From NCBI GenBank assembly GCA_015059545.1, contig SVAG01000002.1:109654-173653 (forward strand): a DNA stretch of 64,000 nucleotides. Reading direction: 5' to 3'. The stretch comes from Lactobacillales bacterium (GTDB lineage Bacteria > Bacillota_I > Bacilli_A > RF39 > UBA660). The notes below the pieces were generated by a model. That model worked only from the letters and a program-made list of their open reading frames with translations, searched no databases and was not told where the DNA came from. This document shows, one piece after another, positions 39,739 through 41,222 of this stretch (positions within the stretch are counted from its first letter, which is position 1; each line of letters starts with the position of its first letter). Made by a program: the position numbers and the translations under genes.

Positions 39739-40431
39739 ATGAGTCCAAAAGCTAAAGTAATCATTCCAAATGCATTAACTTTATCTAGATTAATATTTAC
39801 ACCAATTATTATTGCACTTGGAATTACAAAAAATTATAAAATAGCATTAATACTTGTTGTAATAGCTTGTATTACTGATATGTTTGATGGAAAGCTTGCA
39901 AGAAGATGGAATACTGTTACTGAAACTGGTGCTAAACTAGATGCAATATGTGATAAAATATTTGCTATAGGTTTAATAGCATGCTTATTAAATAAATTTA
40001 GTATTTTTATACCTTTAATAGTACTTGAAGTTATAATAGGTTTATTTAATTTATTTATATATTACAAAATTAAGAAAACTAAATCATTAATGATTGGTAA
40101 AATTAAAACAACGTTCTTATTTATTACAATATCTTTAGGTTTTTCTACATTATTTACAAATATATTTATAAAAGTAATACCTGGTTTTGCAGTTGCAACT
40201 TTAAATATTCAAATTTTAACTTTTATTAGTTATATTGTTTATTTCTATGATACTATTAAAAATAAACAAATAGAAGAAACAATTGTTAAAGATAAAGAAG
40301 AAACTAGAACAAAAGTGTATGATATTGAAGAAGAAGAAAAAAAGAAAAAACAAAAAAAAGAACCAAAAGAATTTAGTTCTGATACAAAGATATTAAAAAA
40401 TCTTAAAGATATATTTTTAGATGAAGATTAG
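39739..40431 (+). CDS. CDP-alcohol phosphatidyltransferase family protein (PgsA-like)
   Basis: The family motif is DMFDGKLARRWNTVTETGAKLDAICDKIF. I set the start at the ATG at 39739, which has an AGGAG RBS at 39726-39730. The C-terminus has a K/E-rich tail. Confidence 0.65.
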   Translation: MSPKAKVIIPNALTLSRLIFTPIIIALGITKNYKIALILVVIACITDMFDGKLARRWNTVTETGAKLDAICDKIFAIGLIACLLNKFSIFIPLIVLEVIIGLFNLFIYYKIKKTKSLMIGKIKTTFLFITISLGFSTLFTNIFIKVIPGFAVATLNIQILTFISYIVYFYDTIKNKQIEETIVKDKEETRTKVYDIEEEEKKKKQKKEPKEFSSDTKILKNLKDIFLDED

Positions 40432-41165
40432 TCTTCATCTTTTTTATATATATTTGATTGATTTCTTCCATTATGTTTTCCAGTATATAAAGCATTATCT
40501 GCTTCTCCTATTATTTCATTGATACTTTTATTTATATCACTATTTGTTAAACCAAATGTCATTGAAACATAAAATTCTTTTATACAATCATTGTATTTTA
40601 CTTTTATTTTAGTTTTTTCTATTAGTTTTCTTATGTTTTCAATTAGATTATATGCTTCTTCTATTTTTAAGGTTGGAATTATAATTAAAAATTCTTCCCC
40701 ACCATATCTTCCTACTATTCCGTCTTTACCTATGTGTTTTACAAGTAATTCACTTATTCCTTTTAAAACATAGTCTCCTACTAAATGACCATATCCATCA
40801 TTAATTCTTTTAAAATGATCAATATCTCCCATAATTAGTGTATATTGTGTACCTTTTAATTCTTCTAGCTTTTCTATAATAGCAAATCTATTATATAAAT
40901 CTGTAAGATAATCTCTTTTTAATTTTCTTATTTCTAATTTATATTTAGTTATATCATTATAAATTTGTATTACATTGTTATCAATTTTTATATAGTCAAC
41001 AGAGTATGTTTTATCATTAAGTGTGATTTCATTTAAATTTTCTTTATTATTATGAAATAATTCGAAAACAAAATCATTATTTCTATAAATAATGTTGTTA
41101 TCAATATCTAAAACAATAATATATGATTTTATATTCTCTATTATTTTTTTATACACACTTTCCAT
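40428..41165 (-). CDS. GGDEF-domain diguanylate cyclase with a small N-terminal sensory (PAS-like) region
   Basis: The active-site motif is RYGGEEFLII. The protein is cytoplasmic and 245 aa. Confidence 0.75.
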   Translation of the reverse strand: MESVYKKIIENIKSYIIVLDIDNNIIYRNNDFVFELFHNNKENLNEITLNDKTYSVDYIKIDNNVIQIYNDITKYKLEIRKLKRDYLTDLYNRFAIIEKLEELKGTQYTLIMGDIDHFKRINDGYGHLVGDYVLKGISELLVKHIGKDGIVGRYGGEEFLIIIPTLKIEEAYNLIENIRKLIEKTKIKVKYNDCIKEFYVSMTFGLTNSDINKSINEIIGEADNALYTGKHNGRNQSNIYKKDED

Positions 41166-41193
41166 TTTATTACCCTCTTACCCTAGTATCTAT

Positions 41194-41222
41194 AGTATAT
41201 GATTTTATCTAAAAAAAGTCAA
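41194..41222 (-). promoter_or_regulatory. Sigma-A-type promoter (TTGACT, 17 nt, TATACT) for the GGDEF gene
   Basis: The -35 element is the complement of 41217-41222 and the -10 is the complement of 41194-41199. An AAGAGGG RBS precedes the ATG at 41165. Confidence 0.45.

What the first reader, a model, noticed from the sequence alone, without database searches (positions are those of the whole stretch)
40428..41222. A standalone GGDEF diguanylate cyclase with a strong promoter is embedded between two pilin-like genes
The active-site motif GGEEF is intact. The N-terminus is a small sensory domain and there is no TM segment. The gene has a near-consensus promoter (TTGACT, 17 nt, TATACT) and an AAGAGGG RBS. 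It is flanked by pilin copies 4 and 3. In Gram-positive bacteria c-di-GMP is known to control type IV pilus expression (C. difficile pilA1 via a riboswitch). No c-di-GMP riboswitch is visible here because the 5' UTRs are ~55 nt, so any coupling would be post-transcriptional or through a PilZ-type effector.
Basis: inference. Interest (0 to 1): 0.5.

Follow-up and report, generated by a model that had tools for sequence, protein, structure and literature searches.

The report
Small PAS-like diguanylate cyclase in division cluster
This is a real, probably active gene for an enzyme that makes the bacterial signal molecule c-di-GMP, but it is an ordinary member of a very large family and nothing beyond gene position ties it to the neighbouring pilin-like genes.

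Summary
Window 40428-41165 (minus strand) encodes a 245-aa cytoplasmic protein. It has an ~82-aa PAS-like N-terminal domain, a short helical linker and a canonical GGDEF domain (Pfam E 1.7e-36). Every catalytic residue is present and invariant in 15 homologues. The RxxD product-inhibition site is missing. The TTGACT-17-TATACT promoter and the AAGAGGG ribosome-binding site exist, and the promoter recurs in two of four orthologous loci. Such matches are no commoner here than chance in this 21-24% GC DNA, so promoter strength is not shown.

The gene lies inside the cell-division/cell-wall (dcw) cluster of an uncultured low-GC Bacilli lineage: mraZ-rsmH-ftsL-pbp2B-prepilin-like-GGDEF-(convergent pgsA-like)-pilin-murG-murB-ftsQAZ.

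- The upstream prepilin-like gene is really a partner of pbp2B. The two overlap, and the pair persists in distant relatives that lack the cyclase.
- The downstream pilin is absent or elsewhere in other species.
- The window holds no c-di-GMP riboswitch, PilZ, EAL, HD-GYP or pilus machinery.

Verdict: this is a new member of a known kind, an already annotated GGDEF protein. The cyclase call is well supported. The pilin coupling rests on adjacency only and stays untested, because the whole genome could not be reached.

The parts
40428..41165 (-). Gene for the 245-aa PAS-like-GGDEF protein (predicted diguanylate cyclase)
   Evidence: ORF. Pfam GGDEF E 1.7e-36. 100% identical protein annotated by NCBI as 'GGDEF domain-containing protein [Lactobacillales bacterium]'. 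AF2 mean pLDDT 90.
40920..41165 (-). N-terminal PAS-like domain plus start of linker helix (aa 1-82)
   Evidence: AF2 pLDDT 88; topology helix, 2 strands, helix, 3 strands, helix. Best Foldseek hits are PAS-like domains: FlrB 7yrt TMq 0.74 at E 9e-4, VC2136 kinase, YF1 LOV, Aer2, FixL. No Pfam hit. Only 51 representatives match at E <= 1e-3 among 1.84 billion proteins.
40458..40916 (-). GGDEF catalytic domain (aa 84-236), including GGEEF at nt 40689-40703
   Evidence: Invariant D114, D116, K119, N122, D131, R153, G155-F159, K230 and G233; R234 is nearly invariant, with one distant homologue (P0027) carrying Lys. The I-site position reads GKDG (aa 146-149), aligned to RQSD of 3ign.
41194..41222 (-). 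Sigma-70-like promoter candidate TTGACT-17 nt-TATACT
   Evidence: Conserved in L005 and L007, degenerate in L008, absent in L009. Not statistically exceptional in this AT-rich DNA.
41173..41179 (-). Ribosome-binding site AAGAGGG, 7 nt before the ATG
   Evidence: Read directly from the sequence. An (A/G)GAGG(G/T) core is kept in three of the four orthologous loci; L008 reads AGGGAGA.
41224..41262 (-). A/U-only hairpin followed by a U run, directly after the stop of pilin-like gene 4 (weak terminator candidate)
   Evidence: RNA fold of the 97-nt gap gives MFE -15.3 kcal/mol and z -3.1. The same palindrome is present in L005.
40419..40440 (.). 9-bp hairpin AGATGAAGA-TTAG-TCTTCATCT spanning the overlapping stops of the cyclase and the convergent pgsA-like gene (bidirectional terminator candidate)
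   Evidence: Terminator scan. Sequence.
39739..40431 (+). Convergent CDP-alcohol phosphatidyltransferase (pgsA-like) gene. It follows the cyclase in all eight distinct orthologous contig contexts examined; one has an extra hydrolase gene in between.
   Evidence: Pfam PF01066 E 2.1e-24 and TIGR00560 E 7.4e-18. Synteny.
41256..42317 (-). Prepilin-type gene 'copy 4' (353 aa). It overlaps the 3' end of pbp2B and is conserved upstream of the cyclase.
   Evidence: N_methyl E 8e-8. About 42 orthologues of 345-360 aa. The pbp2B-pilin4 overlap is kept in L092-L095.
37818..39518 (-). Prepilin-type gene 'copy 3' (566 aa, DUF6273-like head). Its position varies between species.
   Evidence: Absent at this position in L005, L008, L009 and L012; relatives occur between murB and ftsQ in L007 and L009.
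42298..44505 (-). PBP2B-type penicillin-binding protein with PASTA domains (dcw cluster anchor)
   Evidence: Pfam Transpeptidase 1.9e-72, PBP_dimer, PASTA.

Best explanation
The gene encodes a soluble, cytoplasmic diguanylate cyclase. A truncated PAS-like domain (about 70 aa) is joined by a short helix (aa 73-83) to a canonical GGDEF domain. Like other PAS/LOV/REC-GGDEF enzymes, it most likely works as a homodimer held by the PAS-like domain and linker helix. This brings two GTP-loaded GGDEF domains together to make c-di-GMP. Because the RxxD inhibitory site is absent, product feedback is probably lacking. Output would then be set mainly by expression, from its own promoter plus read-through from pbp2B/pilin4, and by whatever the PAS-like domain senses.

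The gene is a vertically inherited, clade-specific resident of the dcw cluster of an uncultured, about 24% GC, gut-associated Bacilli lineage. Its position next to pilin-like genes is best explained by two things. The cluster already carries a pbp2B-coupled prepilin-like gene, and variable pilin paralogues insert at several places along the chromosome. A dedicated cyclase-pilin module is not needed to explain it.

What is shown: domain content, intact catalytic residues, missing I-site, no TM segment, conserved synteny and its limits.

What is inferred: enzymatic activity, dimer mechanism, constitutive or expression-limited control, and the absence of a direct pilin link.
For: - Domain and catalytic residues. 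GGDEF domain E 1.7e-36. The closest solved relatives are active cyclases: 3ign, DgcR 6zxb, DosC, DgcZ, PleD. D114/D116 (DIDHFK), K119, N122, D131, R153, GGEEF155-159 and K230 are invariant in 15 homologues down to 39% identity, and R234 is nearly so, with Lys in one distant homologue.
- Nucleotide specificity. N122/D131/E157 have exactly the spacing of N339/S348/D374 in GacA. Asp at the specificity position combined with GGEEF gives diguanylate cyclase activity (PMC6456294).
- I-site. The position reads GKDG where 3ign has RQSD. It is lost in all dcw-resident orthologues, but RKND/RNED is kept in the distant homologues P0019 and P0020.
- Structure. Full-length AF2 model pLDDT 90. The best full-length structural matches are PAS-GGDEF-EAL RbdA (5xge) and a LOV-GGDEF enzyme (8c05). 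The isolated N-domain matches PAS-like folds.
- Cytoplasmic and native. No TM segment, and GC3 matches the neighbouring genes.
- Synteny. pbp2B-pilin4-GGDEF-pgsA is found in all orthologous loci with 52-100% identity. In distant relatives the pbp2B-pilin4 pair occurs without a GGDEF gene.
- Family. Ten further proteins that share the N-domain are all ~242-335-aa GGDEF proteins.
Against: - No activity assay exists. Intact motifs do not guarantee turnover.
- The PAS-like assignment rests on a model and on Foldseek E-values near 1e-3 with 12-15% identity.
- No phosphodiesterase, effector or riboswitch was found, but only 64 kb plus about 10 kb of the genome could be inspected. It is therefore unknown whether a complete c-di-GMP circuit exists.
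- The cyclase and pilin4 evolve at similar, fast rates (52-74% and 52-66% identity, where dcw enzymes are 75-99%). In L009 they are only 31 nt apart. Both facts are compatible with a functional tie that I rate as unproven rather than excluded.
Confidence: 0.72

Rival explanations
1. One reading: the cyclase is the input of a c-di-GMP circuit that controls assembly or surface display of the pilin-like proteins. Control would be post-transcriptional, through a c-di-GMP-binding pilus ATPase (MshEN-type PilB) or a PilZ protein encoded elsewhere in the genome.
For: - The cyclase is directly downstream of pilin-like gene 4 in every orthologous locus with 52-100% identity. In L009 only 31 nt separate them, with no promoter.
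- The two genes diverge at similar fast rates.
- c-di-GMP control of type IV pili is established in Gram-positives through the C. difficile pilA1 class II riboswitch (PMC6366702).
- Low-GC gut contigs whose pilins share this N-terminus carry a PilB-like ATPase with an MshEN domain (L139, Pfam 4.3e-15).
Against: - There is no riboswitch in the window, even at E <= 10. The pilin leaders are short and consist of a shared terminator, an extended -10 and an RBS cassette.
- The window has no PilZ, MshEN or pilus machinery.
- Pilin4 tracks pbp2B, not the cyclase, in distant relatives.
- Pilin copy 3 is not conserved at this position.
- Distant family members are not next to pilins.
- At this phylogenetic depth the whole region is collinear, so conserved adjacency carries little weight.
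- The MshEN ATPase is from a different, distant organism.
Confidence: 0.13
2. The cyclase signals to the cell-envelope or division machinery rather than to pili. In this view its c-di-GMP output tunes septal peptidoglycan or membrane-lipid synthesis, which would explain its fixed place among pbp2B, pgsA, murG and murB.
For: - The gene has a fixed position inside the dcw cluster, with a stop-to-stop overlap with pgsA in four of the eight distinct contexts.
- In L007 and L093 a PcsB-like M23 division hydrolase lies directly upstream.
- A 45%-identical homologue in another lineage follows murT-gatD, the peptidoglycan amidation genes.
Against: - No effector is known or was found.
- Another family member (P0208) sits by ispH and an ABC transporter.
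- The gene has its own promoter and a hairpin upstream, so it need not share regulation with pbp2B.
- A literature search for GGDEF together with 'dcw cluster' gave no precedent.
Confidence: 0.1
3. The protein is not a working cyclase. It would instead be a degenerate or repurposed GGDEF protein: GdpS-like, a receptor, or a Hypr enzyme making cGAMP.
For: - The NCBIfam GdpS model matches weakly, at 88.6 bits against a cutoff of 400.
- Some Firmicutes carry GGDEF proteins with no c-di-GMP synthesis (general knowledge).
Against: - All catalytic residues are intact across the family, invariant apart from one Arg-to-Lys change at position 234 in the distant homologue P0027.
- The specificity residue is Asp131, not Ser/Thr, and Ser/Thr enzymes never carry GGEEF (PMC6456294).
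- The I-site that receptor-type GGDEF domains use is absent.
Confidence: 0.05

Closest known systems
Sensor-GGDEF diguanylate cyclases with an N-terminal PAS/LOV/REC domain and helical linker (e.g. LOV-GGDEF 8c05, DgcR 6zxb, PleD 1w25, PAS-GGDEF part of RbdA 5xge)
   Same: It has the same two-part layout: an N-terminal alpha/beta sensor or dimerisation domain, a short helix, and a GGDEF domain with a complete active site. These are its best sequence and structure matches.
   Different: The sensor domain is much shorter than a normal PAS domain, about 70 aa against about 110, and no Pfam PAS model recognises it. The RxxD inhibitory site present in PleD, DgcR, WspR and 3ign is missing. The protein is only 245 aa.
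C. difficile c-di-GMP control of type IV pili (DccA and others, Cdi-2-4 class II riboswitch upstream of pilA1)
   Same: Both are low-GC Gram-positives with prepilin-type genes and a GGDEF enzyme.
   Different: No c-di-GMP-I or -II riboswitch was detected anywhere in the window. The pilin leaders are too short for one. No pilus assembly genes lie nearby. The pilin-like proteins here are large 'head' fusions of 325-566 aa. One just outside the window carries a GH20 domain. They do not look like a typical major pilin.
MshEN-domain pilus/secretion ATPases as c-di-GMP receptors (V. cholerae MshE; PilB-type ATPases)
   Same: This is a plausible effector class for any cyclase-pilus link. An MshEN-bearing PilB-like ATPase occurs in distant gut contigs whose pilins share this N-terminus.
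   Different: It was not found in this window or in any contig of this organism that could be inspected. Binding is untested.

Membership tests
GGDEF-domain diguanylate cyclase (active enzyme) | GGDEF domain fold and sequence (Pfam PF00990 / TIGR00254 above curated cutoff) | tested here: met
   125.8 bits against a cutoff of 23.8; TIGR00254 128.1 against 37.4. The AF2 model superposes on solved GGDEF domains at 1.9-2.1 A rmsd.
GGDEF-domain diguanylate cyclase (active enzyme) | Intact GG(D/E)EF active-site loop | tested here: met
   GGEEF at aa 155-159, invariant in 15 homologues.
GGDEF-domain diguanylate cyclase (active enzyme) | Metal-binding Asp in DxD/DIDxFK, guanine-binding Asn and Asp, phosphate-binding Lys/Arg | tested here: met
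   D114, D116, K119, N122, D131, R153 and K230 are present and invariant; R234 is present and nearly invariant, with Lys in one distant homologue. The spacing of N122/D131/E157 equals that of N339/348/374 in GacA.
GGDEF-domain diguanylate cyclase (active enzyme) | Demonstrated synthesis of c-di-GMP from GTP | not testable with these tools
   This needs an enzyme assay or a reporter strain.
GGDEF cyclases with allosteric product inhibition (I-site) | RxxD motif five residues upstream of GG(D/E)EF | tested here: not met
   GKDG at aa 146-149 aligns to RQSD of the c-di-GMP-bound 3ign. The dcw-resident orthologues read DTNG, NTNG, ENHG and similar; only the distant homologues P0019 and P0020 keep RxxD.
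Hypr (cGAMP-making) GGDEF enzymes | Ser/Thr instead of Asp at the nucleobase-specificity position, always with GGDEF rather than GGEEF | tested here: not met
   Asp131 plus GGEEF. Rule taken from PMC6456294.
PAS domain | Five-stranded antiparallel sheet flanked by helices; recognised by PAS profile models | tested here: inconclusive
   The model has a 5-strand sheet with helices, and its best structural matches are PAS-like domains (TMq 0.74, E 9e-4). There is no Pfam PAS hit for this protein. One family member (P0208) gives a sub-threshold PAS hit. The domain is about 40 aa shorter than typical PAS domains.
c-di-GMP-regulated type IV pilus system | c-di-GMP-I/II riboswitch in a pilin or pilus-operon leader | tested here: not met
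   Rfam found no such match in the 64-kb window at gathering score or at E <= 10. The pilin leaders are short shared cassettes.
c-di-GMP-regulated type IV pilus system | c-di-GMP effector (PilZ, MshEN-PilB) and turnover enzymes (EAL, HD-GYP) in the genome | tested here: inconclusive
   None is present in the window or in about 10 kb beyond it.
c-di-GMP-regulated type IV pilus system | Pilus assembly machinery (PilB/PilC/PilD) present and linked to the pilins | tested here: inconclusive
   Absent from the window. Found only in distant contigs.

The most novel reading that the evidence does not exclude
In this reduced, very AT-rich Bacilli lineage, a feedback-insensitive mini-PAS cyclase may have been fixed inside the division/cell-wall cluster, next to a pbp2B-coupled prepilin-type protein. 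Its role would be to couple septal wall synthesis to the export or display of prepilin-anchored surface 'head' proteins through c-di-GMP. That would be a dcw-embedded second-messenger module with no described precedent.
Probability: 0.1. Interest if true: 0.6.

Novelty: new member of a known kind. Interest (0 to 1): 0.25.

Why it matters
If active, this cyclase shows that c-di-GMP signalling persists in a small-genome, uncultured gut Bacilli lineage. It is a compact, I-site-free enzyme of 245 aa and could be handy as a minimal cyclase. Its fixed place in the division cluster beside a pbp2B-coupled prepilin-like gene is a mild curiosity, worth a look when a complete genome or an isolate becomes available. 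As it stands, it is an ordinary GGDEF protein, already annotated as such, and it opens no long-standing question.

Tried and rejected
- Riboswitch coupling was rejected for the window. Rfam at gathering score and at E <= 10 found only a T-box and an L21 leader.
- Local effectors or turnover enzymes were not found. All ORFs of at least 90 aa were read, and the unknown ones were scanned with Pfam. The HD protein at 22343-23473 is HD plus HD_assoc (dGTPase-like), not HD-GYP.
- Hypr/cGAMP and degenerate or receptor GGDEF readings were rejected on residue evidence.
- Horizontal acquisition was rejected. GC and GC3 equal those of the neighbours, and the gene is syntenic across the clade.
- A genome-wide census failed. 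The organism is not among the genome contigs species representatives; the best hit is 58% identical, a 'Bacilli bacterium RGIG9051'. An exact-pattern scan of metagenome contigs with the pilin N-terminal DNA found nothing. A protein-based scan returned only relatives of at most 57% identity. None of the closest of these carried GGDEF or a pilus ATPase within the flanks.
- Extending 10 kb beyond the window's high end showed a hybrid histidine kinase and a prepilin-GH20 fusion, but no c-di-GMP genes.
- A literature search for GGDEF together with 'dcw cluster' gave no relevant precedent.
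Full report
**What is there**

The minus-strand ORF 40428-41165 encodes 245 aa. Pfam places a GGDEF domain at aa 84-236 (E 1.7e-36, 125.8 bits against a cutoff of 23.8), and NCBIfam TIGR00254 agrees. GGEEF is aa 155-159, nt 40689-40703. There is no hydrophobic stretch: the best 19-residue Kyte-Doolittle mean is 0.89. GC and GC3 match the neighbouring genes, so the gene is native. An identical protein is already in NCBI as 'MAG: GGDEF domain-containing protein [Lactobacillales bacterium]' and occurs on 21 metagenomic contigs.

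**Is it likely to be active?**

I aligned the protein with 14 homologues of 39-84% identity. The classical catalytic set is invariant:
- D114-I-D116-x-F-K119
- N122 and D131
- R153-Y-G-G-E-E-F159
- K230

R234 is nearly invariant, with one distant homologue (P0027) carrying Lys.

N122, D131 and E157 have exactly the spacing of N339, residue 348 and D374 in GacA. The published rule is that Asp at position 348 combined with GGEEF gives a GTP-specific diguanylate cyclase, while Ser/Thr enzymes (Hypr, cGAMP-making) never carry GGEEF (PMC6456294). A canonical c-di-GMP synthase is therefore the expected activity.

The allosteric RxxD I-site is missing. In the HMMER alignment to the c-di-GMP-bound 3ign, its RQSD faces GKDG146-149. 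All dcw-resident orthologues lack the motif, whereas the distant homologues P0019 (RKND) and P0020 (RNED) keep it. Product feedback is thus probably lost in this clade.

**The N-terminal domain**

No Pfam model hits aa 1-83. AlphaFold2 with the homologue alignment gives a confident model, with pLDDT 90 for the full length and 88 for aa 1-82 alone. The topology is helix, two strands, helix, three strands, then a linker helix at aa 73-83.

Foldseek places the isolated domain with PAS-like domains:
- FlrB 7yrt (TMq 0.74, E 9e-4)
- the VC2136 kinase
- the YF1 LOV domain
- Aer2, FixL and SrrB

The full model matches PAS-GGDEF-EAL RbdA (5xge) and a LOV-GGDEF enzyme (8c05) over both domains. It is a shortened PAS-like module, and its few conserved positions are I25, N29, L36 and Y69. 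I therefore regard a dimerisation role as at least as likely as ligand sensing; this is inference.

A profile of this domain finds only 51 representatives at E <= 1e-3 among 1.84 billion proteins. The ten checked are all GGDEF proteins of about 242-335 aa. This is a small, lineage-restricted architecture.

**Expression signals**

TTGACT-17-TATACT lies at 41222-41194, and AAGAGGG lies 7 nt before the ATG. The implied leader is about 22 nt.

A 10/12 promoter match is not special in this DNA. The scan found 63 sites in 8 kb against 73.5 +/- 8.4 in shuffles. However, the motif recurs in the orthologous gaps of L005 and L007. It is degenerate in L008 and absent in L009, where the gap is 31 nt.

Directly after the stop of the upstream gene lies an A/U-only hairpin plus a U run (z -3.1), also present in L005. 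The gene most likely has its own promoter and also receives some read-through.

At the 3' end, the stops of the cyclase and a convergent gene overlap inside a 9-bp hairpin at 40419-40440.

**Context**

The region is the dcw cluster.

The window holds five prepilin-type ORFs. Four share an identical N-terminus and a roughly 100-nt upstream cassette made of a terminator hairpin, a TGnTATACT extended -10 and a GGAGAG RBS. Copy 4 has a different N-terminus and overlaps pbp2B.

**Comparative evidence on the pilin link**

In orthologous loci where the cyclase is 52-100% identical, the order pbp2B-pilin4-GGDEF-pgsA is always kept. In L007 and L093 a PcsB-like hydrolase lies between pilin4 and the cyclase, and in L007 a HAD hydrolase lies between the cyclase and pgsA.

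Copy 3 is absent at this site in L005, L008, L009 and L012. Similar pilins lie between murB and ftsQ in L007 and L009.

Pilin4 has about 42 orthologues. In distant relatives, where pilin4 is 31-36% identical, it still follows and overlaps pbp2B, but no GGDEF gene is near (L094, L095).

Conversely, distant members of the mini-PAS-GGDEF family sit elsewhere. One follows murT-gatD and faces pheST (L011). Another sits between ispH and an ABC transporter (L096).

So pilin4 is tied to pbp2B, and the cyclase-pgsA pair is a clade-specific neighbour. At this depth the whole region is collinear, which weakens adjacency as an argument. The cyclase and pilin4 do share a fast rate of divergence, 52-74% and 52-66% identity against 75-99% for the dcw enzymes. 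That is compatible with a tie but does not show one.

**Search for the rest of a c-di-GMP circuit**

Rfam finds only a T-box and an L21 leader in the window, even at E <= 10. I read all ORFs of at least 90 aa and scanned the unknown ones with Pfam. This showed no PilZ, EAL, HD-GYP, MshEN, PilB/C/D/T or second GGDEF. The HD protein at 22343-23473 is dGTPase-like. Ten kilobases beyond the high end hold a hybrid histidine kinase and a prepilin-GH20 fusion, but no c-di-GMP genes.

The whole genome could not be reached:
- The organism is not among the species representatives. The best hit is a 58%-identical gene in 'Bacilli bacterium RGIG9051' from water-deer rectum.
- The metagenome scans returned nothing, or only relatives of at most 57% identity.

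In more distant, about 28% GC human-gut contigs whose pilins share only the N-terminus, a 558-aa PilB-like ATPase carries an MshEN domain with a largely preserved tandem motif. This shows what an effector could look like. It is not evidence for this organism.

**Verdict**

The points to correct are the missed pgsA-like gene and the unsupported word 'strong'. The cyclase assignment is well supported, and the mechanism I favour is a PAS-like-dimerised, feedback-insensitive diguanylate cyclase (confidence about 0.7).

The coupling to pilins, modelled on the C. difficile pilA1 riboswitch (PMC6366702), has no support beyond adjacency and some evidence against it. An envelope or division role is an equally speculative alternative.

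This is a new member of a known kind and of low to moderate interest. The more unusual feature nearby is the pbp2B-coupled prepilin-type gene, which belongs to a different finding.

Noticed in passing
window 41256-42317 (-) with 42298-44505 (-); L092-L095: A 345-394-aa prepilin-type gene overlaps the 3' end of pbp2B. It stays there even in distant relatives (31-36% identity) that lack the cyclase. A prepilin-like protein as a fixed member of the dcw cluster is unexplained.
   Followed up: partly
L178 5873-7291 (same organism, about 2 kb beyond window position 64000): A 472-aa protein fuses a prepilin N-terminal methylation motif to a glycoside hydrolase family 20 catalytic domain (Pfam 3.1e-39). 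It sits next to a 979-aa hybrid histidine kinase. The pilin N-terminus seems to serve as a carrier for enzymatic or binding 'heads'.
   Followed up: partly
window 39519-39620, 48533-48635, 16008-16110, 5401-5500 (-): Four pilin paralogues share a roughly 100-nt upstream cassette: hairpin AAGGTGTAAAATACCTT plus a T run, an extended -10 TGnTATACT and a GGAGAG RBS. They also have near-identical DNA for the first ~45 codons, which suggests duplication or gene conversion of a promoter-plus-anchor module.
   Followed up: partly
window 40419-40440: The stop codons of the cyclase and the convergent pgsA-like gene overlap by 4 nt inside a 9-bp hairpin flanked by T runs on both strands. This looks like a shared bidirectional terminator. 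The stop-to-stop overlap recurs in L001-L005 and L008.
   Followed up: no
window 39739-40431 (+): The pgsA-like phosphatidyltransferase carries a ~55-aa highly charged Lys/Glu-rich C-terminal tail after its membrane domain. This is unusual for PgsA, and the TIGR00560 score is below the equivalog cutoff (65.7 against 109.1).
   Followed up: no
L139 18057-19730 (distant, 28% GC human-gut contig): A PilB-like T2SSE ATPase carries an MshEN domain (Pfam 4.3e-15) and two partly preserved c-di-GMP-binding motifs. It lies about 8 kb downstream of a pilin that shares this window's pilin N-terminus.
   Followed up: partly
L007 5267-6445 and L093 7119-8297: In two related species, a PcsB-like coiled-coil plus M23 peptidase gene is inserted, on the opposite strand, between pilin4 and the cyclase.
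   Followed up: no
window 26476-26653 (-) and 58798-58863 (-): A T-box leader lies upstream of the 25921-26454/25283-25927 genes. An L21 leader lies upstream of rplU. These are the only Rfam matches in the window.
   Followed up: no
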